A stretch of DNA of 64,000 nucleotides from a virus (taxonomy: Duplodnaviria; Heunggongvirae; Uroviricota; Caudoviricetes): the IMG/VR virus record IMGVR_UViG_3300035208_005614, positions 1-64,000 of that record; one strand, 5' to 3'. The position numbers and the translations under genes are program-made. Positions 29,520 through 64,000 of the stretch are shown piece by piece. Under the pieces are notes generated by a model. That model searched no databases and was not told the origin of the DNA. It saw only the letters and a program-made list of their open reading frames with translations. The stretch's first letter is position 1; each line of letters opens with the position of its first letter.

Positions 29520-29955
29520 TATAGAAAAGAAAAAACAGATTAGAGAAATAAATAAAAGAACCATCAGAAGAATGAGAAGTGAGGGTAAGAGTCTTTATGA
29601 GATTTCATTACATGTTAATCTAACTTGTGAAAGAGTTCGCCAGATAGAGAGAGACGTACTTAAATTACCTGTAAGGGGGCATAAGAAAGCAAAGAGAATA
29701 CAAAGAAAGTGTGGTAATCCAAACTGTTCAAACATAATGACGGTAAAAGAAAATGATCATAGACAAAATTGTAGCAAGAAATGTTACTTGGAAGTGATGC
29801 CTCATAAGACACCTGAACAAAAAAGAATTGAACACAATGCAAGAATCCTTAAGTATTATCACGAAAATTTGAAACATGATCCTAAGTTTATAAGGAAAAA
29901 AAAAATTAGAAACAAAAGAGCGGCTGAAAAAGCAAGAGCTTTAAAAAACAAATAA
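29512..29955 (+). CDS. Sigma-70 region-4-like HTH protein with a C-terminal Cys cluster
   Basis: LTCERVRQIERDVLKKL is typical of sigma-factor region 4. Followed by CGNPNCS...CSKKC. 147 aa. Confidence 0.55.
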   Translation: MNNIEKKKQIREINKRTIRRMRSEGKSLYEISLHVNLTCERVRQIERDVLKLPVRGHKKAKRIQRKCGNPNCSNIMTVKENDHRQNCSKKCYLEVMPHKTPEQKRIEHNARILKYYHENLKHDPKFIRKKKIRNKRAAEKARALKNK

Positions 29956-29956
29956 T

Positions 29957-30490
29957 ATGGAATCAACAGAACAAACAGTAAGTACACATACTAAAGGAGA
30001 AATTGAGGCACAAAAATACCTTAAACGCCTTGTTGCGCCCCACACAAAAGTAAGTAAAGAAGTTACAAATAAGGATCTAGATAAGGTAGTGGAAGAAGTT
30101 AAGATATTATATAACTTGTGCTATGTACAAAACGGGTTATATCTAGGAGCATATGCTATGCATCACTCACAGATCGAAGATAAAGATCCTATGAGTTTCT
30201 TTGTTATTGCAGATAAAAGAATCATTATAAACCCAAAGATAGTTAAACATAGTAATTATACCAAAGACTCTAAGGAACAATGTATGTCTTTTGCGAATGA
30301 AGGTCCAGTTGTTGTTCAGAGATGGCAAAAGATAGAACTTGAATATCAAACTATAATGACTGACCCAGAACATGATGGCAAATTTAAATTATCTGATATA
30401 ATTAAGGAATCATTAAGTGGTTTTGAAGCGTTTGTTATGCAACATGAAATCGATCATGGTAATGCAAAGTTTATTTATCAATTAAAATAA
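29957..30490 (+). CDS. def: Peptide deformylase-like protein
   Basis: Motif 3 QHEIDHGN (QHExDHxxG), motif 2-like EQCMSF (EGCLS) and a weaker motif 1 GLYLGAYAM. 177 aa. Confidence 0.6.
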   Translation: MESTEQTVSTHTKGEIEAQKYLKRLVAPHTKVSKEVTNKDLDKVVEEVKILYNLCYVQNGLYLGAYAMHHSQIEDKDPMSFFVIADKRIIINPKIVKHSNYTKDSKEQCMSFANEGPVVVQRWQKIELEYQTIMTDPEHDGKFKLSDIIKESLSGFEAFVMQHEIDHGNAKFIYQLK

Positions 30491-52467: not shown

Positions 52468-55400
52468 TTAAAAGAATCCTGCTATCTTGCCTACAGGTTT
52501 TGAATCTCGACCTTGTCCTACAAGTTTAACACTAGTACCTCTTCCTACAGGTTGCATCTTGTTTCCCTGTGCAACTGGTTTACTATCTGAAGGTGAAAAT
52601 CTGAATGATTCTGAAACAATTGATTCTGAGATGTTTATTTGATCTAAAACACTTATATCATAATAAAAACCTAATCTTATATCAGAATCAATCTCAATTT
52701 CATCAAAAACATTAATATCTCCAAGTTGTCCGTTATTTTCAACATTCTCTGAAATTTCTATATTTTCTGCTACTTGTATTCCAGTAAGAAGTAAATCTAC
52801 CAATTCAATATCCGATATTGAGATTGAATCGTATATATTTATATCTCCAAGTTGTGGGTTAGAAAGGATTACATTTTCTGAAATATTTATACCGTCAGAG
52901 ACGTTTATACCTCCAAGTAGAGGGTTCTCCTGATTATCGGTATCCAAAACATTGACAGAATCTGAGACATTAATTCCTCCCAAATAAGAATTACCCAAGA
53001 TAATATTTTCTGAAATCTCAACCAAATCTTTTACTGAGATCTCTTGTTCTCCTGTATCTTGGAAATTTTCAGAAATATTTATCGTATCAAAAATGTCGAT
53101 TCCTCCTAATTGAGAATTTTCTACAGTTACTTCTTCAGAGATCTCAATTGAATCGTATTTGTCTATACCTGACTCCAAATAATCAACTATTCCGATATCA
53201 TCAGAAACATTAATATCTCCTAGCTGAGAATTTTCTAAAGTAACCGATTCAAGAATATCAATAAGATCAAATACAGAGACTTCTTGTTCTCCTGTATCTT
53301 GGAAGTTTTCAGATATATTGATTATGTCGTTGACAGAAACATTCAATTCTCCTGTATTTGTAATATTTTCTGAAATATTTACATTATCAACAATATTTAT
53401 ATCTCCTAACTGAGAATTATTTATATTTAAATATTCAGATATGTTTACAATTTCTATAATATTTATAGATCCTAATTGCGAGTTACTTAATGCTACATTA
53501 TCTGAAATATTTATAGAATCAGTAGCAAAAATATTTCCAAGTTGAGTTCTTATGACCAAATCTTCTGAAATATTTATAGAATCAGTAGTAGAGATATCTC
53601 CTAACTTGGAGTTATCCAATACGACTTCTTCTGTAATATGAATCACATCGTCAACAATAATAATGAGACTTCCTCCACCTGTGCCGAAATCAACAATATC
53701 TACTTCATCTGAAACGTTGATTCCTCCTAGTTGAGAATTTGAAACGATGACTGACTCTGAAATATTTACTGTATCTATTACTGAAGTGCTTAATATCCCC
53801 GCGTCTGTAAAGTTTTCTGAAATATTTATGTTGTCTACAACAGAAATATCCCCTAACTGTCCAGTTAGATTTACATTTTCAGATATATCTATTGTGTCGT
53901 AAACACTTATTCCTCCTAGATTTGAGTTAGAAACGGTAACTGATTCAGAAATGTTGACTGAGTCTGAAACGTTAATACCTCCTAGATTTGAGTTAGAAAC
54001 GGTAACTGATTCAGAGATATTTACTGAGTCTGAGACGTTGATACCTCCTAGATTTGAGTTAGAAACTGTAACTGATTCAGTGATGTTTATTGAATCGTAT
54101 ACTGAAATATTCTCTTCTCCCATATCTACGACATTTTCTGATATATTGATGGTGTCAAAAACTGAAGTATTCAATACTCCTGTGTCTGTAAAGTTTTCAG
54201 AAATATTTATCGTGTCATAGATATTAATATTTCCTAGTTGTGAGTTTAGAACAATTACTGATTCTGAGATATTGATGGTATCAAATACTGAAGTATTCAA
54301 CACTCCTGTATCCGTAAAGTTTTCTGAAATATTTACTGTATCCGAAAGATTAATATCTCCTAACTGAGAGTTTGAAATGGTAATTGTTTCTGAGATATTT
54401 ACTGTGTCAGAAACATCAATGTTACCCAACTGAGAGTTTGAAATAGTAACTGACTCAGAAATGTCCACTGTGTCATAAACATTTATATCACCTAATTGAG
54501 AGTTTGAAATAACAACTGACTCTGAAATATTTATTGTGTCAAAAACTGAGATAGAACTGAATCCTGTATCTGTAAAGTTTTCTGAGATATTTATTGAATC
54601 TGAGACATTAATATCTCCAAGATTTATAGAGGAATTGGTTGATTCTGAAACATTAATTGAATCATAAACATTAATAGTTCCTAGTTGAGTATTCGTGACT
54701 ATAAATGATTCTGAGATATTTACTATATCTATTATATTAATTTCTCCAAGAGTAGTTGAAGAAATAATTGATTCTGAAATATTTATTGTGTCTGATACGT
54801 TTATGTTTCCTAGTTGAGAATTTGAAATTACAACTGACTCTGAAATATTTATGGTATCTATTACTGAGGTACTTAATACACCTGTATCTGTAAAGTTTTC
54901 TGAAATATTTATTGAATCTGAAACATTTATGTCTCCTAGTTGAGAGTTTGAAACAGTAGTTAATTCTGAGATATTTATAGAATCATATACATTAATTTCT
55001 CCTAATTGAGAGTTTGTAAGTGTAACTGATTCAGATATGTTTATAGAATCATATACGTTAATTCCTCCTAGCTGAGAATTTGAAACAACAACCGATTCAG
55101 ATATATTAACTAAATCAACAACTGAAATATTTGAGACTCCAGTATCTGTAACATTTTCTGAGATGTTTATTGAATCTACAACGGAAATATCTCCTAACTG
55201 ACCAGTTAGACTGATACTTTCAGAGAAATTTATTGAATCAAAAACGTTGATATCACCTAACTGAGAGATTGAAACTATGACTGATTCAGAGATATCTACT
55301 AAGTCTGAAACGTTGATACCTCCTAGATTTGAGTTAGAAACTGTAACTGATTCAGAGATATTTACTGAATCCGAAACGTTGATGTTTCCTAGACTTGAAT

Positions 55401-58400
55401 TAGAAACACTTATTGATTCAGACATATTTATTGAATCAAAGACATTTATTCCTCCTAACTGAGTATTTGTAAGTGTAACTGATTCAGAAATATTAATAGA
55501 ATCGTAAACAGAAAGAGAGAATAAACCTGAATCTACAAAATTCTCAGAAATATTTATTGTGTCAAAAACATTAATGTCTCCTAATTGAGAATTTGAAATG
55601 GTAACTGACTCTGAAATATTTATAGTGTCATAAAGATTTATATAAGAAAGTATAGAATCAGTTAAATCTTCTGAGATATTTATTGAATCATATATATTTA
55701 TTCCTCCTAACTGAGCGCTTGTAAGAGTAACTGATTCAGAAATGTTTACTGAATCATAAAGATTTACATCTCCAAGAGGAGATCTAACTACAACTGACTC
55801 AGAGACATTAATTGAATCAGATAAAACATCGTCACCATATATTCCAAAAGCAAAACCTGGTGTATCTCTTGTCCAAGTCCCTCCAGAATAATATGCAGAA
55901 TCTCCCACTGCAGTTGACTGATCAATTGGAGCAAAAGTCTGGAAACCATAATCTCCAGTTGTTGACTCAACGGTCATGTAATAATGACCTGGAGCTAGAG
56001 AAATTATATTAGCTCCAGAAAATGTGAAGGTTGTGTAAGGACCTGGGAATGACCAATTAAGCGTATTAGCCTCTATTTGGTCTGATACGGCAAGTAATGT
56101 GCCTGGGATAGAATTAACCCCGTAGGTGCCAGAATCTGTGTAAATACGGGCTGTTAGATAACCTGTGCGTCCTCCATTTCTATACAAATAACGACTTGTA
56201 GTTCTTACTCTTGTTGTTTGACTGATTGTAAATGTTTCCCCAAAGGCATAATCTGTATAACCTATTCCACTATTTGTAAGATTTAAAGCATAATAATCAA
56301 GTAAGGTTGTGGTACTAGTTATATACAAAAATCCTTCATCCACTATATTTTCAGAAATATTTATATCATCTCCAACATCTATTGATAAATCATTAATAGG
56401 CGGAAGAACTGAAACACTTTCAGATATATTAATATCTTCTCTTGGATGTCTATCTTCAGCAACATAAAAAATAAGATCGTCATTTGCACCTATTCCAGGT
56501 AAACCAACCCAATTACCTCCTAATTTAACAGATGCATTACCTGGATGAGTTGGAGAGCCCAAATCACTGTAAATTAATAAGGTTCCACTTGTCGGAGTAG
56601 ACTCAATTGTTATTACATAATATTGACTTGCTGTAAGTGCTATTTTATTTATTCCCGAGAAATTAAAATAGATTATTCCATTTGAAGCAGGAATCGTTGA
56701 AATGTCTATTGAATCAGAAGTAGCAAGTAATGTATCTGGTATTGAATCATAACCAAACGTTCCTGTCATCGTGTAGATCTTTGAAACTACAGTTCCTGTT
56801 GCTCCATTACCATTTAGATAGAATCCAGAAAAATCTAAGGTTCTATTTGCTTTACATAGGAATGATTGTCCGAAGAATTGAAAACCGTAGAATGTACTAT
56901 TTGCATGAGTATAATCATAACTATCTATGTAATTAAGATTTCCAATGTCTCCAAGTTGTCCTGTGTTTGTTACACTTTCAGAGATATTTATTACATCATA
57001 ACTAATAACTATTAAAGGATTAACTTGGTATGATTCAGAAATATTTACTGTGTCATATGTATTTGCATATAAGAATGGATTTTCTATAGTAACGGATTCA
57101 GATATATTAACGACATCGTTTAATATTGGATGACCGTGAGCAATAAAGACAGTATTATAATTTTGTAACGCAGTCCAAACACCTCCACTCTGAGAAGCAG
57201 AATTACCGTTTGTAAAATTCTCTGGTGTATTAGCTGAGACTACTGGGTTGTTAGATGCTCCTCCACCTGGAAAATCAAAAACTAAGAAATAATCTGTATT
57301 TTCACTTAATGAAATTCTATTACTTCCTGAAAATGGGAAATTAAAATACGCACCACTTCCGCTATATGGAGGTAAAGTAGAAGCTTCAACTGAATCTGAT
57401 GTAGCCAAAGCACTCCCTGTAGGAACAGCATCAACTCCATATGTTCCCGTTGAAGCATATATTTCGACATAAATAGGTCCTGAAGGAGCGTTAAATTTAG
57501 CCAAAAGAACATCAACACTATCCAAGATCATTGAAGTTGTGCTCTTTGTCCCCTGTGCCCACGCATGATTAGCATACAAACCTCCATACCATGCGCCAGA
57601 TACAGTAGTAAAACTATCGTAAATAACGACATTTTTAATTATGTCTCCTAACTGTCCTGTATCGTTGGGAACATCTGAAATATTTAATGTATCGTAAAGA
57701 TTAATTCCTCCTAACTGAGTACTTGAAAGAGTCTTTGATTCAGAAATATTTATTGTATCTACGACAGAAACAGCTAGGGGTTCTTCAGAATTTTCACTTT
57801 CAGATATGTTTATGGAATCAAAAATAGATACGCTTAATGGTTCTTCTACATTAATACTTTCTGATACATTTATTGAGTCATATACATTTATTCCTCCTAA
57901 CTGAGCGTTTGTAAGAGTAACCGATTCAGAAATGTTTATTGAATCATAAAGATTTATATCTCCAAGTTGAGATTCTGTGATTGTTTTTGACTCTGATATA
58001 TTTACTGAATCATATAGATTTATTCCGCCTAGATTTGGATTAGAAATTGTAACTGACTCAGAGATGTTTACTGAATCATATAGACTTATATTTACGTCAA
58101 GAGTTTCTGTAATACTTTCTGATATATCTATTGAATCATATATATTTATTCCTCCTAGATCTGGATTAGAAATAGTAACTGATTCAGATATATTTACTGA
58201 GTCATCTTTATTTATTCCTCCGAGTTGAGAATTTGTAACAATTACATCTTCTGAAGTATCTATTGAATCATATAAATTAATACTTCCTAGTTGCCCTGTT
58301 CTAGTTATAGATTCAGAAATATTTATATCGTCATGAACATTTATTCCGCCAAGTTGCCCTGTTCTAGTTATAGATTCTGATATATTTATGTCATCGTGAA

Positions 58401-60510
58401 CACTAAGAGGTAGTATGGGACTTGCTGAAATGGTTACGTCAGCATCTTCTGTAATATTAATAGTTTCATATTTAAGAAATTGGGTAGAGATAATTTCAAC
58501 TTGTGGAACACCGTTATAAACTGCAAAATAAAGATCGTCAGTATAACCAGTCCATGTTGTGCCGTTGGAAGAACCACATCTATTTCCTCCTGCTCCAGTT
58601 CCTCCACCTCCTATTTGTAAATAATTACCTCCATCTCCCCCTGGATAGTAAAAAACTAAACAATAATAAGTTGCCGCCGACATGAGATATCTACCCGCTA
58701 CTTCAAAATCAAAAGAGACTTCTTGAAAAGCAGAAGTTGAAATAGTTTGTACATTTACCCCTTTAGAGGTAGCAAGAGCAGCACCAGTTGGTTTACCTGA
58801 AGTCGTTCCGTAAGTTCCCGTGTGCGCGTATAATTTAGCATAGATAAAACCTGTAGGGTTAGTGTACCTTTTAAAATAACCTATTCCTTTCCCTAAAATA
58901 CCAGCATTGGTATTTGTAAAAGATTGACCTGAATATGGAGCGGCACTATAAATAGTTAAATAACCTGGTGCAGAAAGATAATTTTCAATTAAATAAGTTA
59001 CATAAAGAGGTTCAGCAGCAACATTTAAATCATCATGAACTTGAATTTCAAGATAATGAATTACCGTTGTAGATTCTGATATATTAATTAATTGGTTTTG
59101 ATATGTTTCTCTAGCGTTAAGAACTTTTAATTCAACCCAACCTTCATTAATAAAAATACTTTCTATTCTACTTACGTACTCTATAGGTGTAGTTAAAGCA
59201 ACAGTAATACTCTCTGAAATATTAACTTTTTCAGGTATAAAAACTTGTCTTTGGACGAGATCTTCTATTTTTATTCTATCAAAAACCGAAAGGGGCAAAG
59301 AAATTGCGACTTTAACATCTTCCCTTATTTTTGGAGATTCAAAATTATATCCTTGCCATTTAGTTGCTGTCCCCACCGTTAATCCAGTAGGTGCTTCCTG
59401 AATACCTATATCATCGTGAACATAGATATTTATATTATTAGGATCGTTTATTTCTATAGAATTGAATACATGAGATGTCCCAGAATTCCAACAATATAAT
59501 CCTCCAAGAACCCACATATTTCTTTCTGTTACTCCAGAAACAGATCTAACAAGAACTCCATCAAGCCAGAAGGTAATATTCCCGTTTAGATCGTAAATAA
59601 TTTCATAAGTTCTTTCTACTGTTCCGTATCCTGAACCTATCGCAATTTGTGTTGTTCCTGCCTGTGTAATCAAAACACCTGAAGATTCCCATCTATATAA
59701 GAAAGAATAACTATTTGTAGGACCTGAAAAACCGATGTTATAATAAGAACCTGCTGTCGAGGTAAATTTGGCAATAAATTTAATAGACATTCCAGGATTA
59801 ATCAATGGAACTCTATAATTTATTGAAGATCTAGGACCACTTCCCGTTAATCCAGTTAGAGTCAAAAGACCCCCAGAAGCCGCCCATTGAGCTGGAAAAG
59901 TGGGTTCTGCCCAGTACATAAGATCAAGAACATTTAACTTAGTATTACCGTTAAATGGTTCAAACCATGGTGTTGCTGGTGGAAAAACATCAACAGAATC
60001 AACATTCATGATCATTCCTGAGTCATAAACGTTACCGAATTGGACTTTAAGATCTGAATCTAAGATTGCAGTAAGTGATCTATAAACAAGAGCTCCATCA
60101 ATAAAAAAGTTTGCAAATCCATTAGGTAACCATTCTATTTCAAAATTGTGTTGTGTAGCGTTAGCTACTATTCCAGTATTAAAATAAGTGTTTACAGTTC
60201 CATTGTAAATTTGGATATAAATATATGTTGCTCTATCCCAAGTCTGAGCAAAGGCGATAGTATCTGTTGGACCTACAAAACCTAAAGCGTGTCCGCTCAA
60301 TGCAGTATCTGGACAGTTTGCTCTAAAAGAAAGAGTTGTACCAGGACCAAAAGTATCATTGCTTCTAACTATACAAGTGGGGCTTCCTGCTCCTCCACCA
60401 GTAAGTTTAAGCATTCCACTAGCAATAGTAACGTTACCCGCGTATGTCCATTCCGCGGTGTTTATAGGTAAACTATCAAATGTGTCTATTAATCTCGGTA
60501 CGATCGACAT
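52468..60510 (-). CDS. Giant 2680-aa repeat protein: four paralogous lectin-like domains plus more than 50 copies of a 22-aa repeat
   Basis: Uninterrupted 8 kb ORF. The 22-aa repeat unit approximates SNSQLGDINVYDSINISESVTV. Four about 150-aa paralogous domains (..TGTYG...P.G.ALATSD.I...T......F.F.G.N.I.L....YY..) lie in the N-terminal half. Probable receptor-binding fibre. Confidence 0.7.
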   Translation of the reverse strand: MSIVPRLIDTFDSLPINTAEWTYAGNVTIASGMLKLTGGGAGSPTCIVRSNDTFGPGTTLSFRANCPDTALSGHALGFVGPTDTIAFAQTWDRATYIYIQIYNGTVNTYFNTGIVANATQHNFEIEWLPNGFANFFIDGALVYRSLTAILDSDLKVQFGNVYDSGMIMNVDSVDVFPPATPWFEPFNGNTKLNVLDLMYWAEPTFPAQWAASGGLLTLTGLTGSGPRSSINYRVPLINPGMSIKFIAKFTSTAGSYYNIGFSGPTNSYSFLYRWESSGVLITQAGTTQIAIGSGYGTVERTYEIIYDLNGNITFWLDGVLVRSVSGVTERNMWVLGGLYCWNSGTSHVFNSIEINDPNNINIYVHDDIGIQEAPTGLTVGTATKWQGYNFESPKIREDVKVAISLPLSVFDRIKIEDLVQRQVFIPEKVNISESITVALTTPIEYVSRIESIFINEGWVELKVLNARETYQNQLINISESTTVIHYLEIQVHDDLNVAAEPLYVTYLIENYLSAPGYLTIYSAAPYSGQSFTNTNAGILGKGIGYFKRYTNPTGFIYAKLYAHTGTYGTTSGKPTGAALATSKGVNVQTISTSAFQEVSFDFEVAGRYLMSAATYYCLVFYYPGGDGGNYLQIGGGGTGAGGNRCGSSNGTTWTGYTDDLYFAVYNGVPQVEIISTQFLKYETINITEDADVTISASPILPLSVHDDINISESITRTGQLGGINVHDDINISESITRTGQLGSINLYDSIDTSEDVIVTNSQLGGINKDDSVNISESVTISNPDLGGINIYDSIDISESITETLDVNISLYDSVNISESVTISNPNLGGINLYDSVNISESKTITESQLGDINLYDSINISESVTLTNAQLGGINVYDSINVSESINVEEPLSVSIFDSINISESENSEEPLAVSVVDTINISESKTLSSTQLGGINLYDTLNISDVPNDTGQLGDIIKNVVIYDSFTTVSGAWYGGLYANHAWAQGTKSTTSMILDSVDVLLAKFNAPSGPIYVEIYASTGTYGVDAVPTGSALATSDSVEASTLPPYSGSGAYFNFPFSGSNRISLSENTDYFLVFDFPGGGASNNPVVSANTPENFTNGNSASQSGGVWTALQNYNTVFIAHGHPILNDVVNISESVTIENPFLYANTYDTVNISESYQVNPLIVISYDVINISESVTNTGQLGDIGNLNYIDSYDYTHANSTFYGFQFFGQSFLCKANRTLDFSGFYLNGNGATGTVVSKIYTMTGTFGYDSIPDTLLATSDSIDISTIPASNGIIYFNFSGINKIALTASQYYVITIESTPTSGTLLIYSDLGSPTHPGNASVKLGGNWVGLPGIGANDDLIFYVAEDRHPREDINISESVSVLPPINDLSIDVGDDINISENIVDEGFLYITSTTTLLDYYALNLTNSGIGYTDYAFGETFTISQTTRVRTTSRYLYRNGGRTGYLTARIYTDSGTYGVNSIPGTLLAVSDQIEANTLNWSFPGPYTTFTFSGANIISLAPGHYYMTVESTTGDYGFQTFAPIDQSTAVGDSAYYSGGTWTRDTPGFAFGIYGDDVLSDSINVSESVVVRSPLGDVNLYDSVNISESVTLTSAQLGGINIYDSINISEDLTDSILSYINLYDTINISESVTISNSQLGDINVFDTINISENFVDSGLFSLSVYDSINISESVTLTNTQLGGINVFDSINMSESISVSNSSLGNINVSDSVNISESVTVSNSNLGGINVSDLVDISESVIVSISQLGDINVFDSINFSESISLTGQLGDISVVDSINISENVTDTGVSNISVVDLVNISESVVVSNSQLGGINVYDSINISESVTLTNSQLGEINVYDSINISELTTVSNSQLGDINVSDSINISENFTDTGVLSTSVIDTINISESVVISNSQLGNINVSDTINISESIISSTTLGEINIIDIVNISESFIVTNTQLGTINVYDSINVSESTNSSINLGDINVSDSINISENFTDTGFSSISVFDTINISESVVISNSQLGDINVYDTVDISESVTISNSQLGNIDVSDTVNISETITISNSQLGDINLSDTVNISENFTDTGVLNTSVFDTINISESVIVLNSQLGNINIYDTINISENFTDTGVLNTSVFDTINISENVVDMGEENISVYDSINITESVTVSNSNLGGINVSDSVNISESVTVSNSNLGGINVSDSVNISESVTVSNSNLGGISVYDTIDISENVNLTGQLGDISVVDNINISENFTDAGILSTSVIDTVNISESVIVSNSQLGGINVSDEVDIVDFGTGGGSLIIIVDDVIHITEEVVLDNSKLGDISTTDSINISEDLVIRTQLGNIFATDSINISDNVALSNSQLGSINIIEIVNISEYLNINNSQLGDINIVDNVNISENITNTGELNVSVNDIINISENFQDTGEQEVSVFDLIDILESVTLENSQLGDINVSDDIGIVDYLESGIDKYDSIEISEEVTVENSQLGGIDIFDTINISENFQDTGEQEISVKDLVEISENIILGNSYLGGINVSDSVNVLDTDNQENPLLGGINVSDGINISENVILSNPQLGDINIYDSISISDIELVDLLLTGIQVAENIEISENVENNGQLGDINVFDEIEIDSDIRLGFYYDISVLDQINISESIVSESFRFSPSDSKPVAQGNKMQPVGRGTSVKLVGQGRDSKPVGKIAGFF
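52560..55890. repeat. 66-bp-period coding tandem repeat, about 50 units
   Basis: Direct reading of the DNA shows reiterated ...AATATTTCAGA(G/A)ATATTTAT(T/G)GAATC... units. Shorter runs lie at about 57650-58450 and in the two downstream genes. Confidence 0.7.
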
Positions 60511-60554
60511 ATCAATATATTATCATAGTGCTTTAGCCGTTCTCCCTCTTAGAA

Positions 60555-60586
60555 TACAAAAAAGACGCCTAGCGGCGTCTCTTTTG
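60555..60586. terminator. Hairpin terminator AGACGCC-TAGC-GGCGTCT flanked by A- and T-runs
   Basis: A 7-bp GC stem preceded by ACAAAAAA and followed by CTTTTG. Terminator-like on either strand. It lies about 50 nt upstream of the giant gene start. Confidence 0.5.
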
Positions 60587-60660
60587 AGAGATCTCTATAT
60601 ATATGGGGCTTAGGAAATGAAAATGAAACCTAACCCCGTCTAAGCATAGCATAGTGCAAA

Positions 60661-60691
60661 CGAAAAACCACCCAAAAACGAGTGGTTTTCG
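60661..60691 (-). terminator. AT-rich hairpin just downstream of the 60713-60940 gene
   Basis: CGAAAAACCAC ... GTGGTTTTCG, a 10-bp stem with a short U-run after it on the minus strand. Confidence 0.35.
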
Positions 60692-60712
60692 GTAGGTAAC
60701 CCCTAATCTTTC

Positions 60713-60940
60713 CTACTGGGGAGATTTTGGATCACCTCCTTTGTCTTTGAATTCGTCTGTGTGTTCTTTTGCCCATTTCTCTGCACCTCCGTTTTCGGCG
60801 TAATGTTTCAACAACCAATCTGGGTGGTAATAGAGTTCGTCATCTGAACAACAATGTTCGACGCGCGTGGTGTGGCGATTCAAAGGATTTGTTAAGGCGT
60901 CAATGATTTGAGCTACATTGTAGCCTTTTAGATCAAACAT
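60713..60940 (-). CDS. Hypothetical protein
   Basis: 75-aa ORF, GC-richer than average. Confidence 0.4.
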   Translation of the reverse strand: MFDLKGYNVAQIIDALTNPLNRHTTRVEHCCSDDELYYHPDWLLKHYAENGGAEKWAKEHTDEFKDKGGDPKSPQ

Positions 60941-60999
60941 TTGACACCTCCTATGAGTGAATTTAATTTCCGAAATCAGCAGTCAAGCATATTATTAAT

Positions 61000-61509
61000 T
61001 TAGAACGTCTTTATCTCACCAAAACTACAATCAGAACTTGCACAACCTAGTATGTTACTTGGTGCACTTCCTCCTACTGCACCGCCTAGACTTGCTGAGG
61101 CTGAAGTCAAAGTATAATTTTGACCGTCAGTTGTTCCTGATGAACAATAACCTATAGTGTTTACTGCGTTAGATGTTGATCCTCCACAATACGTGATATT
61201 TGGGTTATATGTTCCGTAAGTCCAGTAATAATAAGGCTGATACCATGGTTGGTTGATATAAATTGGGGTTTGAATCGTCTTTATTGTTTCAATAATTTGT
61301 GTTCTACTTGCCAATTTCTCTATAGTTTCGCGCAAGAACTTAATCTCGCTCTCTAAACTCTTCTTGTCTCTTTCTTCGTCAGTCTCGCTAGTAAATAAAA
61401 TCTCTCTTGCTTCTTCTTTTGTTAGAATTGGCTTGGCACCTTCGGTGAGTTTTAACACTTCATCGATTGTGGGGAGCTTTGAAAGTCTCCACTTTAATTT
61501 TGTCGTCAT
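61000..61509 (-). CDS. Hypothetical protein with a Cys/Gly/Ser/Thr/Tyr-rich C-terminal half
   Basis: 169-aa ORF with an acidic coiled-coil-like N-terminus and YCGGSTSNAVNTIGYCSSGTTDG low complexity. Confidence 0.45.
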   Translation of the reverse strand: MTTKLKWRLSKLPTIDEVLKLTEGAKPILTKEEAREILFTSETDEERDKKSLESEIKFLRETIEKLASRTQIIETIKTIQTPIYINQPWYQPYYYWTYGTYNPNITYCGGSTSNAVNTIGYCSSGTTDGQNYTLTSASASLGGAVGGSAPSNILGCASSDCSFGEIKTF

Positions 61510-61584
61510 CTTCTTGTTATTTATTAACTTGACCGTTGATTTCGGGAATTAAATTTTGAAAGAACTGATCCTTTTATATTTTAT

Positions 61585-61656
61585 CATAGTACTAGCTCTT
61601 CGAGTAGGATTCGGACCTACGATCTATCGCTTAACAGGCGATGGCTTTACCACTAA
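61585..61656 (-). tRNA. tRNA-Asn (anticodon GUU)
   Basis: Hand-folded cloverleaf: acceptor TCTTCGA/TCGAAGA, D GCTT/AAGC, anticodon stem ATCGC/GCGAT with loop CUGUUAA, T-arm GTAGG-TCCGAAT-CCTAC. Coordinates within about 2 nt. Confidence 0.75.
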
Positions 61657-61661
61657 GCTAT

Positions 61662-61732
61662 CGAAGAATATGCTGGGGAAGATGGAATCGAACCACCATT
61701 AATCGCTTCAGAGGCGATCTTACTACCTTTAT
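61662..61732 (-). tRNA. tRNA-Gln (anticodon CUG)
   Basis: Acceptor TGGGGAA/TTCCCCA, anticodon stem ATCGC/GCGAT with loop CUCUGAA, T-arm GGTGG-TTCGATT-CCATC. Confidence 0.7.
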
Positions 61733-61750
61733 AAGATTCCCCAATTTGTA

Positions 61751-61822
61751 CTTTCTAACTGCTGGGGATCTTGGGTTCGAACCAAGCTACACGGCTTCAA
61801 GGGCCGTTGAACTACCAACTAT
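61751..61822 (-). tRNA. tRNA-Gln (anticodon UUG)
   Basis: Acceptor TGGGGAT/ATCCCCA, D GAAT/GTTC, anticodon stem ACGGC/GCCGT with loop CCUUGAA, T-arm CTTGG-TTCGAAC-CCAAG. Confidence 0.8.
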
Positions 61823-61835
61823 TCTAATCCCCAAT

Positions 61836-62198
61836 TTACCATTTTTTACCTTTTTTTCTAGCAGTTAATCTCCACTTTTTTCTAACCTCATTATAAGCAT
61901 TCATACAAAGTCTACATCTACATTTATGATGTCTATACATTGAATACATTCCATGTTTTGATTCCCCGTTATCAATCTTATTCTTTTCTTTGTGACATAT
62001 ATGACAAAGTAATTGACACTTAGAAACTTCTAATAAAACTTTTTGTATAGAATAAGACCATTTTTCTGTTATGGTAAATTTTTTTGTTTTAGGATCAATA
62101 TGATCAAACTCTAATCCTTCTTTACTTCCACAAACAACACATTTTCCTCCTAATAATTCTATTAATAAACTAATTCTTTTTTTATAATGTCTTATCAT
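61836..62198 (-). CDS. HNH endonuclease embedded in the tRNA array
   Basis: CVVCGSKEGLEFDHIDPKTKKF...LLCHICHKEKN is a canonical HNH pattern (C..C...DHI.P.....N..LC..CH..K). Confidence 0.6.
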   Translation of the reverse strand: MIRHYKKRISLLIELLGGKCVVCGSKEGLEFDHIDPKTKKFTITEKWSYSIQKVLLEVSKCQLLCHICHKEKNKIDNGESKHGMYSMYRHHKCRCRLCMNAYNEVRKKWRLTARKKGKKW

Positions 62199-62313
62199 TA
62201 GTATATCCTACCATAATACTTTAAAATGTCCTACCCTGCGGGCCGAGAAGGACTTGCACCCTCATTTTCCGCTTTGGAGACGGAAGTGTTTCTATTACAC
62301 TATCAACCCAATG

Positions 62314-62386
62314 GGTAACTATTGGGAATTGAACCCAACCTAAGAGTTTCACAAACTCCTGTGCGAACCGATACACTACAGTCACC
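62314..62386 (-). tRNA. tRNA-His (anticodon GUG) with an encoded G-1
   Basis: Extra 5' G opposite the C73 discriminator, acceptor GTGACTG/TAGTTAC (two G-U pairs), anticodon loop UUGUGAA, T-arm TTGGG-TTCAATT-CCCAA. Confidence 0.75.
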
Positions 62387-62389
62387 ATG

Positions 62390-62473
62390 TGCGTAAAAGA
62401 GGACTCGAACCTCTAACTCCTTTCGAAGACAACATTTTAAGTGTTGCGCGTATACCACTTCCGCCATTCACGC
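62390..62473 (-). tRNA. tRNA-Leu (anticodon UAA), class II
   Basis: Acceptor GCGTGAA/TTTACGC, anticodon stem CAACA/TGTTG with loop CUUAAAA, long variable arm of about 16 nt, T-arm AGAGG-TTCGAGT-CCTCT. Confidence 0.8.
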
Positions 62474-62477
62474 ATTG

Positions 62478-62551
62478 TGCACGAAAGAGGACTCGAACCT
62501 CTAGATCTTGGTTTTTGAAACCAATACGTTTACCAATTTCGTCATTCGTGC
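62478..62551 (-). tRNA. Atypical tRNA with anticodon CAA: Leu-like acceptor and T-arm but only a 5-nt variable loop
   Basis: Acceptor GCACGAA/TTCGTGC and T-arm AGAGG-TTCGAGT-CCTCT are shared with the two tRNA-Leu genes. Anticodon stem TTGGT/ACCAA with loop UUCAAAA. The variable region is only GATCT. Confidence 0.55.
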
Positions 62552-62555
62552 CCTG

Positions 62556-62626
62556 AGCCTCTCGTTAGAATCGGACTAACGTCTAAAGTTTACAAAACTA
62601 TCGTTCTACCATTGAACTAGAAAGGC
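62556..62626 (-). tRNA. tRNA-Thr (anticodon UGU), tentative
   Basis: Acceptor GCCTTTC/GAGAGGC (one G-U), D GTTC/GAAC, anticodon loop UUUGUAA on a stem with one mismatch, T-arm GTTAG-TCCGATT-CTAAC (unusual C55). Confidence 0.55.
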
Positions 62627-62670
62627 TTAATGTGACCGTCATCGACAAGAAACCGACACTACGTCACATG

Positions 62671-62754
62671 TGCACAAAAAGGGACTCGAACCCCCACCCC
62701 CTTTCGGAGATCAGTTTCTAAGACTGATGCGTATACCAATTCCGCCATTCGTGC
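62671..62754 (-). tRNA. tRNA-Leu (anticodon UAG), class II
   Basis: Acceptor GCACGAA/TTTGTGC, anticodon stem TCAGT/ACTGA with loop CUUAGAA, variable arm of about 15 nt, T-arm GGGGG-TTCGAGT-CCCTT. Confidence 0.8.
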
Positions 62755-62848
62755 AGAGTTCCACAATTAATTGCTAAGTTAATTAGCCTATCAAGTACCT
62801 TAAAAAAGGTACAGTGGAACTATATTGTCCAATCCGAAGATTGGAGTG

Positions 62849-62919
62849 TGCCATGAGATGGAATCGAACCACCGTGTCCTGTGCTTCAAACAGGAGTTTT
62901 ACCATTAAACTATCAGGGC
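62849..62919 (-). tRNA. tRNA-Phe (anticodon GAA)
   Basis: Acceptor GCCCTGA/TCATGGC (one C-U mismatch at 4:69), D GTTT/AAAC, anticodon stem CCTGT/ACAGG with loop UUGAAGC, T-arm GGTGG-TTCGATT-CCATC. Confidence 0.65.
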
Positions 62920-63104
62920 TATAATTCACTATAACATCCCTACTCTTGTTAAATGGCTCTGACGAGCTCCAGGGTTTTATATTTATAGTGGTGGCATCCG
63001 AGCCCCCGCTTACGCGGTGACTTGGCAAATTCGAAATTGGAACTTTTACTTTCAGCCACTTATCCAACTTCTAGAGAACCTAGTAACAAGACGGTTCCCT
63101 TGTG

Positions 63105-63176
63105 AGCATCGAGCTGGAATCGAACCAGCGCATGATAGTTTTGCAAACTATCGTCTTACCACTTGACTACCGATGC
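63105..63176 (-). tRNA. tRNA-Cys (anticodon GCA)
   Basis: Acceptor GCATCGG/TCGATGC, anticodon stem ATAGT/ACTAT with loop UUGCAAA, T-arm GCTGG-TTCGATT-CCAGC, discriminator U. Confidence 0.75.
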
Positions 63177-63180
63177 TTGG

Positions 63181-63261
63181 TGCATGTAGTTGGAATCGAA
63201 CCAACAGTGCCCGCGGGCGAAGGTTTTACAGACCCCTAGAATTCCACTATCTGATACATGC
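63181..63261 (-). tRNA. tRNA-Tyr (anticodon GUA), class II
   Basis: Acceptor GCATGTA/TACATGC, anticodon loop CUGUAAA, variable arm containing the GCCCGCGGGC hairpin, T-arm GTTGG-TTCGATT-CCAAC. Confidence 0.7.
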
Positions 63262-63262
63262 G

Positions 63263-63334
63263 TAGCAGGTAGGAGAATCGAACTCCTTTGAAGAGGTTAT
63301 GGGCCTCCCGACTTAACCATCCGTCTCACCTGCG
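63263..63334 (-). tRNA. tRNA-Met (anticodon CAU; elongator, initiator or Ile2-type not resolved)
   Basis: Anticodon stem GGAGG/CCTCT with loop CCCAUAA (C33), T-arm AGGAG-TTCGATT-CTCCT, acceptor CGCAGGT/ACCTGCT with a C1:U72 mismatch. Confidence 0.6.
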
Positions 63335-63350
63335 ATAAACTATTCAATTG

Positions 63351-63421
63351 TCAGAGAACTAGGGATCGAACCTAGGCCGTATGTTTCCAGAACACAAATG
63401 CTTCCGCTACACCATACTCTG
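63351..63421 (-). tRNA. tRNA-Pro (anticodon UGG), tentative
   Basis: Acceptor CAGAGTA/TTCTCTG (one mismatch), anticodon stem TGTGT/ACATA with loop UCUGGAA (C33), T-arm CTAGG-TTCGATC-CCTAG. Confidence 0.55.
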
Positions 63422-63432
63422 ATAAAGAACTG

Positions 63433-63507
63433 AGGGCAAGGCTGGTATCGCACCAGCTTCATTTCGGGGTATTAGCACGACGCTCTACTCTTAGTCGCTA
63501 CCTGCCC
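63433..63507 (-). pseudogene. Aberrant tRNA-like element (possible tRNA pseudogene)
   Basis: A good acceptor-like closing helix (GGGCAGG/CTTGCCC) and a T-arm-like hairpin GCTGG-TGCGATA-CCAGC, but no consistent D or anticodon arms could be drawn. Confidence 0.3.
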
Positions 63508-63712
63508 TTATTTTAACTTAATATTTGATGGAATGTCAAAATCTTTTCTATCTATCCTTCTCAAAAAGGCTCTTATATTCCTATGAGGTTTATAATTCCA
63601 TCCTTTCTGTTTGTATTTATTTATATCTTTATTTTTCATTACGCTATTGCAGAACATAATAGGTTGGATGGTCCGTAGCGAGCGGAGTCCATTAGTTTCA
63701 TTCTGCTACCTG

Positions 63713-63783
63713 CGGGACTAGCGGGAATCGAACCCGCACTTAATGTTAGACAAACAATAGTTCTGCCACTAAACTATAGTCCC
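63713..63783 (-). tRNA. tRNA-Asp (anticodon GUC)
   Basis: Acceptor GGGACTA/TAGTCCC (perfect), D GTTT/GAAC, anticodon loop UUGUCUA, T-arm GCGGG-TTCGATT-CCCGC, discriminator G. Confidence 0.75.
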
Positions 63784-63804
63784 AATAAATATATCATATC
63801 ACAT

Positions 63805-63858
63805 TAAAAAATAAAAACAAAAAGTCCTTCTTAGGCTCAAATTTTGCGCGAAGAAGGA
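63805..63858 (-). terminator. Rho-independent terminator (minus strand) just upstream of the tRNA array
   Basis: An 8-bp stem TCCTTCTT/AAGAAGGA with an 18-nt loop. On the minus strand it is followed by CTTTTTGTTTTTATTTTTT. A TATGAT -10-like box (63793-63798, minus strand) then sits about 9 nt before the tRNA-Asp 5' end. Confidence 0.55.
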
Positions 63859-64000
63859 TTAATGTCCCCTGATGGGGCTAAACGGCTATGCCCAAACAAG
63901 CTATTCGTCGTTCAGACCTTAAAGATTTCTCTCTAAAACCCTCCGTAACGAGACTCTTAACCTTCTAAGGCTAAGACTTATAGCGAGTAAGTGTATTTAG

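What the first reader, a model, noticed from the sequence alone, without database searches (positions are those of the whole stretch)
61585..63783. Minus-strand array of at least 14 tRNA genes with a dedicated terminator and promoter arrangement
Hand-folding gives Asn(GUU), Gln(CUG), Gln(UUG), His(GUG, with G-1), Leu(UAA), a CAA tRNA, Thr(UGU), Leu(UAG), Phe(GAA), Cys(GCA), Tyr(GUA), Met(CAU), Pro(UGG) and Asp(GUC). Many are spaced only 1-4 nt apart. A terminator hairpin followed by a TATGAT box sits just upstream of tRNA-Asp. Several have non-standard features: C33 in Met and Pro, U-C-C in the T-loop of Asn and Thr, and acceptor mismatches in Phe and Met. These features suggest phage-evolved tRNAs rather than recent host copies.
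Basis: seen in the sequence. Interest (0 to 1): 0.5.

Follow-up and report, generated by a model that had tools for sequence, protein, structure and literature searches.

The report
Phage tRNA gene cluster, 15 genes
This is a real cluster of 15 transfer-RNA genes (plus one tRNA-like element and a homing-endonuclease gene) in the genome of an uncultivated phage; it is a well-known kind of phage feature, though several of these tRNAs break near-universal tRNA rules.

Summary
ARAGORN finds 15 minus-strand tRNA genes at 61595-63783, and Rfam's tRNA model scores 14 of them above its curated threshold. It missed tRNA-Trp(CCA) at 62239-62309.

A 16th, sub-threshold tRNA-like element lies at 63433-63507. 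An HNH endonuclease gene (61836-62198) interrupts the array.

- C33 also in Gln(UUG).
- U-G-C T-loop in Trp.
- U37 in Asp.
- The CAA tRNA is a Leu paralog that lost its long variable arm.

The Met tRNA looks like an initiator (C1xU72, A73, A11-U24). Relatives carry a similar single tRNA-Met, and the phage encodes a peptide deformylase.

The array is a lineage-specific insertion between lysis-like genes and a tail-fibre module. It probably forms one unit: terminator, TGaTATGAT promoter, tRNAs, two small genes, terminators.

Phage T5's tRNA region is the closest precedent, so this is a new member of a known kind. Why these particular tRNAs are carried remains unresolved, and expression is untested. 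A 65-nt structured spacer RNA holding 10 of 12 strain differences is the most curious side finding.

The parts
63805..63858 (-). Terminator-like hairpin (stem UCCUUCUU/AAGAAGGA, 18-nt loop) followed by the U-tract CUUUUUGUUUUUAUUUUUU. It would end transcription of the upstream lysis-like genes.
   Evidence: Sequence; fold z -1.9. Not found by the consensus scan because the loop exceeds 8 nt.
63793..63801 (-). Promoter-like extended -10 element, TGaTATGAT. The tRNA-Asp 5' end lies 10 nt downstream of it.
   Evidence: Sequence. TATGATA also sits in front of the 169-aa gene and, after a terminator, in front of the 2680-aa gene. No transcript data.
63713..63783 (-). tRNA-Asp(GUC), G73. Unusual U37 and a U-U mismatch in the anticodon stem.
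   Evidence: ARAGORN; Rfam 62.3 bits; loop table.
63510..63539 (-). Sigma-70-like promoter match, TTGACA-18-TAAAAT (11 of 12), ending 2 nt before the tRNA-like element.
   Evidence: The geometry would place the start site inside the element, so function is doubtful.
63433..63507 (-). tRNA-like element or possible pseudo-tRNA: 7-bp acceptor stem, T-loop UGCGAUA, nominal anticodon AAU, U73 followed by CA.
   Evidence: Rfam tRNA 25.7 bits, below the threshold of 29. ARAGORN finds it only at a relaxed threshold.
63351..63421 (-). tRNA-Pro(UGG) with C33, C1-G72, A73, U6xU67 and a 4-nt variable loop. ARAGORN's label is Ser(GGA).
   Evidence: Infernal alignment puts the loop at UCUGGAA; Rfam 46.4 bits; ARAGORN.
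63263..63334 (-). tRNA-Met(CAU), initiator-like: C1xU72, A73, A11-U24, anticodon stem A29-U41/G30-C40/G31-C39, and C33.
   Evidence: ARAGORN; Rfam 32.4 bits; comparison with the tRNA-Met of relatives.
63178..63261 (-). tRNA-Tyr(GUA) with a long variable arm. It is the only tRNA here with an encoded CCA.
63105..63176 (-). tRNA-Cys(GCA), U73.
   Evidence: (64.6 bits).
62920..63104 (-). 185-nt spacer that folds into several hairpins, one with a GUAA tetraloop. Possibly a small stable RNA or a processing element.
   Evidence: Fold z -2.75. No Rfam family at E up to 10.
62849..62919 (-). tRNA-Phe(GAA), A73, C4xU69 mismatch, G37 and C38.
   Evidence: (61.7 bits).
62828..62845 (-). UUCG-tetraloop hairpin (7 bp) in the Phe/Leu spacer.
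62757..62821 (-). 65-nt three-way-junction RNA element (8-bp closing helix and two hairpins). It holds 10 of the 12 differences between the window and contig L001.
   Evidence: Fold of the whole 93-nt spacer (this element plus the UUCG hairpin) z -6.0; difference map; both alleles fold alike; all 20 pairs kept, 2 by double changes.
62671..62754 (-). tRNA-Leu(UAG), long variable arm, A73.
62556..62626 (-). tRNA-Thr(UGU), U73, T-loop UCCGAUU (C55), and a U-U mismatch in the anticodon stem.
62478..62551 (-). tRNA with anticodon CAA. It is a Leu-family paralog lacking the long variable arm (10-nt deletion), with A73.
   Evidence: (65.3 bits).
62390..62473 (-). tRNA-Leu(UAA), long variable arm, A73.
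62314..62386 (-). tRNA-His(GUG) with an encoded G-1 (62386) opposite C73.
62239..62309 (-). tRNA-Trp(CCA), G73, T-loop UGCAAGU, and a D-loop without GG.
   Evidence: (54 bits).
61836..62198 (-). HNH endonuclease gene (120 aa) inside the array, with its own Shine-Dalgarno sequence.
   Evidence: PHROG 4234, E 1e-31; ORF; SD survey.
61762..61833 (-). tRNA-Gln(UUG) with C33, U1-A72 and G73.
61673..61743 (-). tRNA-Gln(CUG), U1-A72, G73.
61596..61667 (-). tRNA-Asn(GUU), G73, T-loop UCCGAAU (C55).
   Evidence: (69.1 bits).
60713..61509 (-). Two small protein genes (169 aa and 75 aa) directly downstream of the array, with no terminator in between. They are probably co-transcribed with it.
   Evidence: (no structure in 61510-61594).
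60557..60692 (-). Two terminator-like hairpins, each followed by a T-run, that would close the transcription unit. A further TATGATA box (60521-60527) and the 2680-aa gene follow.

Best explanation
**What it is.** This is a genuine tRNA operon of an uncultivated, AT-rich phage whose adaptor and portal genes resemble those of the tailed podophage SU10.

**Proposed mechanism (inferred).**
1. Transcription of the upstream lysis-like genes stops at the hairpin and U-tract at 63805-63858.
2. It restarts at the extended -10 promoter TGaTATGAT, a few bases before tRNA-Asp.
3. It then runs through 15 tRNA genes, a tRNA-like element, structured spacers and an HNH endonuclease gene.
4. It probably continues through the 169-aa and 75-aa genes to the terminators at about 60557-60692.
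5. Host RNase P cuts the 5' ends, producing G-1 of tRNA-His. With gaps of only 1-5 nt, the same cuts leave very short 3' trailers.
6. Exonucleases trim those trailers back to the encoded C74, and the host CCA-adding enzyme completes the 3' end. Only tRNA-Tyr encodes CCA.
7. Host synthetases charge the tRNAs.

**What it supplies.** The phage gains its own pool for 12 amino acids, including an initiator-type tRNA-Met. This keeps phage translation going whatever happens to the host pool.

**Why these tRNAs.** The set does not match the phage's most-used codons and is no better matched to late than to early genes. Several members carry changes in the anticodon loop or elbow. My preferred reason is therefore independence from, or resistance to, loss of host tRNAs (nucleases, shut-off), with codon supply as a secondary benefit.

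**Shown versus inferred.** Gene identity, order, structure and genomic context are shown. Transcription, processing, charging and the selective reason are inferred.
For: - **Gene calls:** 15 tRNAs by ARAGORN and Rfam.
- **Identity rules:** discriminator bases and key acceptor pairs fit bacterial rules for every isotype. Examples are G73 with U1-A72 in both Gln, U73 in Cys, G-1/C73 in His, A73 in Leu, Tyr, Phe, Pro and Met, and G73 in Asp, Asn and Trp (rules from established tRNA identity knowledge).
- **One unit:** all genes are co-directional with 1-5 nt gaps.
- **Signals:** terminator and promoter are present upstream. The same terminator-then-TATGATA arrangement precedes the 2680-aa gene. 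No terminator follows tRNA-Asn.
- **CCA status:** C74 is encoded in 16 of 16 and CCA in 1 of 16. The same holds in crAss001 and in the 735-kb phage LR756501, whereas T5 encodes full CCA.
- **Insertion:** the array sits at a site that is about 150 nt in relatives. That site holds 1-4 tRNAs in other relatives.
- **Initiator reading:** the Met features recur in relatives' tRNA-Met, and the phage encodes a peptide deformylase.
- **Codon usage:** the tRNAs cover about 39% of codons in both early and late genes, and skip Lys, Glu, Ile, Gly and Ser.
- **Repair genes in a relative:** L005 has RNA ligase and PNKP genes next to its tRNAs.
- **Published framework:** phage tRNAs with anticodon-loop changes evading host tRNases (PMC10264068; PMC11555353 and PMC11464382, listed).
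- **Precedent:** the T5 tRNA region has the same architecture.
Against: - There are no expression, processing or charging data.
- The host is unknown, so neither codon compensation nor nuclease evasion can be tested against host tRNAs.
- The promoter has no good -35 and was not found by the consensus scan.
- The terminator hairpin has a large loop and a modest z-score.
- Some tRNAs are so deviant that they may work poorly or be decaying: Met scores 32 bits, three tRNAs have C33, three tRNAs plus the tRNA-like element lack U55, and Asp has U37.
- All known copies of the array are nearly identical strains, so there is no evolutionary evidence of purifying selection on individual tRNAs.
Confidence: 0.8

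Rival explanations
1. Codon compensation is the main reason for the array. The AT-rich phage (33% G+C) carries tRNAs for codons it uses more than its host does, which boosts translation of its genes, especially late ones.
For: Several members read A-ending codons that dominate their families in the phage. These are Leu UAA (UUA 36-38%), Thr UGU (ACA 46-51%), Pro UGG (CCA 43-44%) and Gln UUG (CAA 77-79%). This is the classical explanation for phage tRNAs (reviewed in PMC10264068).
Against: - The most demanded A/U-rich codons have no tRNA in the 72 kb examined: Lys AAA, Glu GAA, Ile AUA/AUU, Gly GGA, Arg AGA and Ser UCA/UCU.
- Rare ones are served instead: Cys is 0.3-0.9% of codons, and Trp, His, Leu UUG and Gln CAG are also covered.
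- Coverage is the same in early and late genes, 391 versus 390 per 1000 codons.
- Host codon usage is unknown.
Confidence: 0.3
2. The array is mainly a selfish or decaying passenger: a cassette spread by the HNH homing endonuclease. Many of its tRNAs would be non-functional relics, which would explain the broken consensus positions and the tRNA-like element.
For: - An HNH gene sits inside the array.
- One element is already below the tRNA threshold, and Met is barely above it.
- Deviations from universal positions are frequent.
- The array is absent from most relatives.
Against: - Fourteen tRNAs score 46-69 bits, which is normal for working tRNAs.
- All stems are intact apart from single mismatches.
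- Identity elements are kept for every isotype.
- Changes at 18/55 in Trp go together: the D-loop has no GG and the T-loop has G55.
- The same kinds of cluster in T5 are expressed (T5 annotation, and established knowledge).
Confidence: 0.1
3. The region is a bacterial tRNA operon on a host fragment or prophage flank, not a phage feature.
For: tRNA operons with short spacers are common in bacteria. One homolog of the neighbouring gene is on a contig binned as Candidatus Kaiserbacteria.
Against: - The array lies between lysis-like genes and a tail-fibre module, inside at least 72 kb of phage genes.
- The neighbouring gene family is in 29 IMG/VR viral contigs.
- The metagenome-bin contigs are 3-17 kb and look like mis-binned phage.
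- There are no rRNA or housekeeping genes.
Confidence: 0.02

Closest known systems
tRNA gene region of Escherichia phage T5 (NC_005859, about 28-41 kb)
   Same: - Many co-directional tRNA genes with gaps of a few bases.
- Several HNH endonuclease genes (hegA, C, D, E) among them.
- Promoters placed directly in front of tRNAs.
- Interspersed 'stable RNAs' and 'tRNA-like RNAs' of unknown function.
- Small ORFs between tRNAs.
- An initiator tRNA-fMet next to tRNA-Pro(UGG), and adjacent Gln(UUG) and Gln(CUG).

All of this is as annotated in the T5 record.
   Different: - T5 tRNAs all encode CCA (22 of 22 true tRNAs) and keep U33 and U54-U55-C56. The single ARAGORN call departing from each is a spurious 'Ser act' call inside the annotated stable RNA rnaX.
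- T5 covers all amino acids with about 25 tRNAs.
- There is no sequence similarity beyond generic tRNA similarity.
- The host and phage lineage are different.
tRNA cluster of Bacteroides phage crAss001 (MH675552, 1.7-5.8 kb)
   Same: - 23 clustered tRNAs with an HNH gene inside.
- CCA is mostly not encoded, but C74 is (22 of 23), followed by A or U.
- The genome is AT-rich. From my own knowledge, Bacteroidota phages largely lack Shine-Dalgarno sites, as this window does (5 of 50 genes).
   Different: - All crAss001 tRNAs have U33.
- The set is nearly complete.
- The phage family is unrelated.
tRNA arrays of the 735-kb uncultured phage LR756501
   Same: - N73 followed by CA in 19 of the 21 tRNAs without CCA.
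- It also has tRNAs with Leu anticodons but a short variable region, 74-75 nt.
   Different: - The arrays are far larger.
- U33 is kept in 25 of 26, and the exception is G33, not C33.
- The genome is unrelated.
Phage T4 tRNA cluster (from my own knowledge, not checked here)
   Same: Eight tRNAs made as multi-tRNA precursors and cut by RNase P. Some lack an encoded CCA. Two small stable RNAs of unknown function and a homing endonuclease gene (segB) lie in the same region.
   Different: The T4 cluster is smaller, its endonuclease belongs to the GIY-YIG family rather than HNH, and it is an early or middle transcription unit of an E. coli phage.
Anticodon-loop variant tRNAs of cluster C1 mycobacteriophages and T5 (PMC10264068, PMC11555353, PMC11464382)
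   Same: Phage tRNAs that differ from the norm in the anticodon loop. They are proposed, and for T5 tRNA-Tyr and tRNA-Lys shown, to escape host tRNA-cutting defences.
   Different: Here the host tRNAs and host nucleases are unknown, so the changes (C33 three times, U37, G37/C38) cannot be tied to any cleavage site.
Initiator tRNA-Met of multicellular eukaryotes
   Same: It is the one well-known natural tRNA class with C33 instead of U33 (PMC8887486). The phage Met tRNA is initiator-like and has C33.
   Different: The phage tRNA has bacterial initiator features, namely a 1x72 mismatch and A11-U24. There is no relationship by descent.

Membership tests
Phage tRNA gene cluster (T4/T5 type) | Several tRNA genes that pass a covariance model, clustered on one strand | tested here: met
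   15 by ARAGORN; 14 at 46-69 bits and 1 at 32 bits on RF00005.
Phage tRNA gene cluster (T4/T5 type) | Located in a phage genome | tested here: met
   Phage replication, adaptor, tail and fibre genes surround it, and its relatives are in IMG/VR.
Phage tRNA gene cluster (T4/T5 type) | Transcribed as multi-tRNA precursors and processed to mature, charged tRNAs | not testable with these tools
   Only sequence signals are available: 1-5 nt gaps, an upstream promoter-like box, and identity elements.
Bacterial initiator tRNA (tRNA-fMet), for 63263-63334 | No Watson-Crick pair at 1:72, with A73 | tested here: met
   C1xU72 and A73. Canonical initiators have C1xA72, so this is a variant mismatch. Relatives show C1xA72 or A1xA72.
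Bacterial initiator tRNA (tRNA-fMet), for 63263-63334 | Three consecutive G-C pairs (29-41, 30-40, 31-39) in the anticodon stem | tested here: not met
   A29-U41, G30-C40, G31-C39: two of three. The same pattern is seen in relatives L016 and L019, whose acceptor stem is the classic CGCGGGG/CCCCGCAA.
Bacterial initiator tRNA (tRNA-fMet), for 63263-63334 | A11-U24 in the D stem | tested here: met
   Read from the ARAGORN structure.
Bacterial initiator tRNA (tRNA-fMet), for 63263-63334 | Formylation and use at the ribosomal P site | not testable with these tools
   Indirect support only: the phage encodes a peptide deformylase.
tRNA-Pro rather than tRNA-Ser, for 63351-63421 | Anticodon position in a standard 7-nt loop closed by a 5-bp stem | tested here: met
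   Infernal aligns the stem UGUGU/ACAUA and the loop UCUGGAA, giving UGG. ARAGORN's Ser register needs a U-C mismatch in the stem.
tRNA-Pro rather than tRNA-Ser, for 63351-63421 | Bacterial Ser tRNAs have a long variable arm and G73; Pro tRNAs have A73, G72, G35 and G36 | tested here: met
   4-nt variable loop, A73 and C1-G72. The rules come from established identity knowledge.
Bacterial tRNA-Leu (class II), for 62478-62551 | Long variable arm | tested here: not met
   There is a 10-nt deletion relative to its two paralogs, and the tRNA is 74 nt long.
Bacterial tRNA-Leu (class II), for 62478-62551 | A73 with a Leu-type acceptor and D arm | tested here: met
   Its acceptor 5' strand is identical to that of Leu(UAG). 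It shares 78% identity over 41 nt with Leu(UAG) and 89% over 28 nt with Leu(UAA).
HNH homing endonuclease | HNH nuclease domain | tested here: met
   PHROG 4234, E 1e-31, covering residues 4-115.
HNH homing endonuclease | Site-specific cleavage and homing | not testable with these tools
   No data.
Intrinsic terminator, for 63805-63858 | G+C-rich hairpin immediately followed by a U-tract | tested here: inconclusive
   An 8-bp stem with 3 G-C pairs and an 18-nt loop, followed by a strong U-tract. z -1.9. Not called by the scan.

The most novel reading that the evidence does not exclude
The deviant tRNAs may be a deliberately 'hardened' pool. They comprise C33 in Pro, initiator-Met and Gln(UUG), U37 in Asp, non-U55 elbows in Asn, Thr and Trp, and an arm-less Leu. 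Such a pool would escape host tRNA-cutting defences or host modification enzymes.

The tRNA-like element and the fast-evolving 65-nt three-way-junction RNA in the Phe/Leu spacer could then be decoy or anti-defence RNAs under diversifying selection. That would make this a combined tRNA and RNA-decoy counter-defence locus.
Probability: 0.15. Interest if true: 0.6.

Novelty: new member of a known kind. Interest (0 to 1): 0.28.

Why it matters
Phage tRNA clusters have been known since T4 and T5, so the existence of this one is ordinary. Its value is as a case study.

- It comes from an uncultivated phage lineage in which most members carry at most a single tRNA, mostly an initiator-like tRNA-Met. 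The build-up of an array at one fixed intergenic site can therefore be traced.
- It contains natural tRNAs that break near-universal rules, yet they keep every identity element. These are U33 to C33 three times, a pyrimidine at position 37, loss of U55, and a Leu tRNA without its long arm.
- If these tRNAs work, they are ready-made test substrates for the current idea that phage tRNAs are shaped by host tRNA-cutting defences.
- The strain-variable structured spacer RNA adds to the unexplained 'stable RNAs' of the T4 and T5 tRNA regions.

Tried and rejected
1. **Source and close relatives.** Megablast of the region against 50,697 phage records found nothing. The sensitive search gave only generic tRNA similarity at 78% or less.
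2. **Exact-pattern scans.** IMG/VR and JGI metagenomes held no copy of the Met/Tyr junction or the Phe/spacer junction. A Met anticodon-arm pattern found one more near-identical strain and one chance hit.
3. **Fibre N-terminus.** The N-terminus of the 2680-aa fibre has no relatives in IMG/VR.
4. **Neighbouring 169-aa gene family.** It has 187 homologs, but the closest is only about 60% identical. Of 43 related loci examined, only a few carry 1-4 tRNAs. No alignable second version of the array exists, so no covariation test on the tRNAs was possible.
5. **Host search in GTDB genomes.** It gave three short metagenome-bin contigs (Kaiserbacteria, Omnitrophota, unclassified) that look like mis-binned phage. 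No host call was made.
6. **Ser(GGA) for 63351-63421.** Rejected in favour of Pro(UGG).
7. **tRNA-Ile2 (lysidine) reading of the CAU tRNA.** Considered because AUA is 37-41% of Ile codons. It is less likely than initiator because of the 1x72 mismatch, A11-U24, and the relatives' classic fMet acceptor stem.
8. **The 'N73-C-A' trailer.** It is present after 13 of 16 genes (P about 4e-15) and at first looked special. Controls show that C74 without CCA is general in crAss001, LR756501 and the relatives, so it is not a novelty of this array.
9. **Late-gene codon enrichment.** Rejected.
10. **Rfam families in the spacers.** None found at E up to 10.
11. **Bacteroidota-type promoter motif TAnnTTTG.** A raw count of the motif over the whole window was uninformative; its position relative to genes was not analysed.
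12. **tRNA-processing genes.** No RNA ligase, PNKP or CCA-adding enzyme was found among the roughly 47 window and upstream (L001) proteins scanned.

Full report

ARAGORN on the whole window returns 15 tRNA genes, all on the minus strand between 61595 and 63783, and none elsewhere. In order of transcription they are:

- Asp GUC
- 'Ser GGA'
- Met CAU
- Tyr GUA
- Cys GCA
- Phe GAA
- Leu UAG
- Thr UGU
- Leu CAA
- Leu UAA
- His GUG
- Trp CCA
- Gln UUG
- Gln CUG
- Asn GUU

Rfam's tRNA model scores 14 of them at 46-69 bits against a curated threshold of 29. The Met gene reaches 32.4 bits when the region is searched on its own.

Thirteen have the same anticodon in ARAGORN.

**2.

For 63351-63421, ARAGORN shifts the register by one base to keep a U at position 33 and calls Ser(GGA). 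That costs a U-C mismatch in the anticodon stem. The Infernal alignment instead gives a standard D stem, one base at position 26, the stem UGUGU/ACAUA and the loop U-C-U-G-G-A-A. That is anticodon UGG preceded by C33.

The tRNA has A73, C1-G72 and a 4-nt variable loop. Bacterial Ser tRNAs have G73 and a long arm, while Pro tRNAs have A73 and G72 (established identity rules). I read it as tRNA-Pro(UGG).

**3. The unusual features.**

- Asn and Thr have T-loops beginning U-C-C.
- Trp has U-G-C, together with a D-loop that lacks the usual GG.
- Asp has a pyrimidine (U) at position 37.
- Phe has G37 and C38.
- Mismatches are C1xU72 in Met, C4xU69 in Phe and U6xU67 in Pro. Asp and Thr have U-U in the anticodon stem.
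- His has an encoded G-1 opposite C73.

In control arrays analysed the same way, non-U33 was seen in 1 of 23 ARAGORN calls in T5. That one lies inside the annotated stable RNA rnaX and is not a true tRNA. Non-U33 was also 1 of 26 in LR756501, 0 of 23 in crAss001 and 0 of 10 in relatives. So 3 of 15 here is high.

Yet the discriminator and acceptor identity elements fit bacterial rules for every isotype. That argues for working tRNAs rather than wreckage.

**4. Further components.**

- A 16th, tRNA-like element lies at 63433-63507. It scores 25.7 bits on the tRNA model, below threshold, and ARAGORN finds it only when relaxed. Its nominal anticodon is AAU and its T-loop is UGCGAUA.
- An HNH endonuclease gene (61836-62198; PHROG 4234, E 1e-31) sits between Trp and Gln.
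- The CAA tRNA is a paralog of the two long-arm Leu tRNAs with a 10-nt deletion that removes the variable arm. Similar short 'Leu' tRNAs occur in the 735-kb phage LR756501.

**5. The Met tRNA is probably an initiator.**

It has no pair at 1:72 (C1xU72), A73, A11-U24, and G30-C40/G31-C39 below A29-U41.

Related phages that carry a single tRNA-Met show the same signature. L016 and L019 have the classic CGCGGGG...CCCCGCAA acceptor and the same A-U/G-C/G-C stem. L021 and L022 have A1xA72.

The phage also encodes a peptide deformylase at 29957-30490. One defining feature, three G-C pairs, is not fully met, so I call it initiator-like.

C33 is otherwise known from initiator tRNAs of multicellular eukaryotes, and it blocks t6A formation by the E. 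coli enzymes (PMC8887486).

**6. Context.**

The window is part of an uncultivated phage: 33% G+C, with GroEL, helicase, primase, RecA, SbcCD, an SU10-type adaptor, and giant proteins of 2390 and 2680 aa.

Contig L001 (ENA ERZ27247350) extends the sequence 8 kb upstream and shows no further tRNAs. Upstream lie a 348-aa gene and a 61-aa gene. In relatives the homologous 348-aa protein has Peptidase_C1 and PG-binding domains, so this looks like a lysis cassette. Downstream lie a 169-aa gene, a 75-aa gene and the 2680-aa fibre.

In relatives L043 and L045, the gap between the 61-63-aa gene and the homolog of the 169-aa gene is about 150 nt and holds no tRNA. L005 has four tRNAs there, followed by RNA ligase and PNKP genes. 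L021 has one. The array is therefore a lineage-specific build-up at a recurrent tRNA site.

**7. Transcription-unit model.**

Upstream of tRNA-Asp there is a hairpin (63825-63858) and a long U-tract, then TGaTATGAT (63793-63801).

TATGATA recurs just before the 169-aa gene. It also recurs, again after a clear terminator, just before the 2680-aa gene.

There is no structure between tRNA-Asn and the 169-aa gene. Two terminator-like hairpins follow the 75-aa gene.

I infer one unit: promoter, 16 RNA genes plus HNH, two small genes, terminators. None of this is shown by transcript data. The strong TTGACA-18-TAAAAT match at 63510-63539 sits too close to the tRNA-like element to give it a complete 5' end.

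**8. 3' ends.**

All 16 elements have C after the discriminator. Thirteen have CA, and only Tyr has CCA. Controls show this is general for phage tRNAs that lack CCA: crAss001 22 of 23 with C74, LR756501 26 of 26, relatives 9 of 10. T5 encodes full CCA.

So it is not special to this array. It does imply reliance on a host CCA-adding enzyme. It may also mean (inference) that trimming stops at C74.

**9. Why these tRNAs?**

The tRNAs read about 39% of codons in both replication and structural genes. They omit the heaviest codon families (Lys, Glu, Ile, Gly, Ser, Arg AGA) and include rare ones (Cys, Trp, His). The window is only part of the genome, so other tRNAs may exist elsewhere.

Codon compensation alone fits poorly. 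The anticodon-loop changes fit the published idea of tRNAs that escape host tRNases (PMC10264068). Without the host, neither explanation can be tested.

**10. Closest known system.**

The T5 tRNA region has the same ingredients: closely packed tRNAs, HNH genes, promoters in front of tRNAs, tRNA-like and other stable RNAs of unknown function, small ORFs, and fMet next to Pro(UGG).

This finding is therefore a new member of a known kind.

**11. Side finding.**

Over 12,165 aligned bases, the window and L001 differ at 12 positions. Ten of them lie within 62760-62824. That stretch is a 65-nt three-way-junction RNA in the Phe/Leu(UAG) spacer. The whole 93-nt spacer folds far better than shuffles (z -6.0).

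Both alleles fold the same way. All 20 pairs are kept, two of them through double changes. Two sequences give no statistical power. No donor copy was found in any held sequence. Its role is unknown.

Noticed in passing
window 62757-62821 (minus strand); L001 9378-9442: A 65-nt three-way-junction RNA in the Phe/Leu(UAG) spacer holds 10 of the 12 differences between two otherwise identical strains over 12.2 kb. Two stem pairs changed on both sides and one changed to G-U, so the fold is kept. It is either a fast-evolving element or a recombination patch. Its function is unknown.
   Followed up: partly
window 63433-63507 (minus strand): A sub-threshold tRNA-like element with nominal anticodon AAU and T-loop UGCGAUA. 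A near-consensus TTGACA-18-TAAAAT box sits directly upstream, too close to give the element a full 5' end.
   Followed up: partly
window 62920-63104 and 63508-63712 (minus strand): Two long spacers lie inside the array. The first folds into several hairpins (z -2.75). The second holds a 49-aa lysine-rich ORF (63508-63657) with no clear ribosome-binding site. They recall the unexplained stable RNAs and small ORFs of the T5 tRNA region.
   Followed up: partly
window 61596-63783; L049; L051: Every tRNA here encodes C74 but not CCA, and most have N73-C-A. The same is true of Bacteroides phage crAss001 and the 735-kb phage LR756501, but not of T5. It appears to be a general but little-discussed property of phage tRNA genes without CCA.
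   Followed up: yes
whole window: Only 5 of 50 genes have a Shine-Dalgarno core; the start regions are A-rich. The HNH gene and the 75-aa gene are among the exceptions. Together with low G+C and the C74 pattern shared with crAss001, this hints at a Bacteroidota-like host. The evidence is weak.
   Followed up: partly
window 29957-30490 (+) and 11735-12292 (-): The phage encodes a peptide deformylase and a Fic/DOC-family protein. The deformylase pairs naturally with a phage initiator tRNA.
   Followed up: no
window 52468-60510 and 31653-38825 (minus strand): There are two giant structural proteins. The 2680-aa one consists largely of dozens of short repeats of the type 'LGGINVxDSINISESVTV'. The other is 2390 aa. 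No family matches were sought for either.
   Followed up: no
window 8096-9751 (-), 22383-23399 (+), 5435-6448 (-): The phage encodes a GroEL-type chaperonin, a RecA and a GDP-mannose-dehydratase/epimerase-family protein.
   Followed up: no
window 60521-60527, 61582-61588, 63792-63798 (minus strand): TATGATA, usually as (G)yACTATGATAA, recurs just upstream of three transcription-unit starts in the late region. The one before the 2680-aa gene lies only 10 nt from the ATG, with no ribosome-binding site, which suggests a nearly leaderless mRNA. A weak sigma-70 region-4 match (29512-29955) hints at a phage sigma factor.
   Followed up: partly
L005 9198-9821 and 11199-12978: A distant relative has four tRNAs at the same site (Met with a reduced D arm, Pro, Trp, Gln). 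An RNA ligase and a polynucleotide kinase-phosphatase, a tRNA-repair pair, follow immediately.
   Followed up: no
L049 20334-20486 (LR756501): The 735-kb uncultured phage also has tRNAs of 74-75 nt with Leu anticodons (UAA, UAG) and no long variable arm. Arm-less 'Leu' tRNAs therefore recur in unrelated uncultivated phages.
   Followed up: partly
window 63894-63895: The only other strain difference is TT in the window versus AA in L001 and L047. It lies in the non-coding stretch between the 61-aa gene and the terminator hairpin.
   Followed up: no
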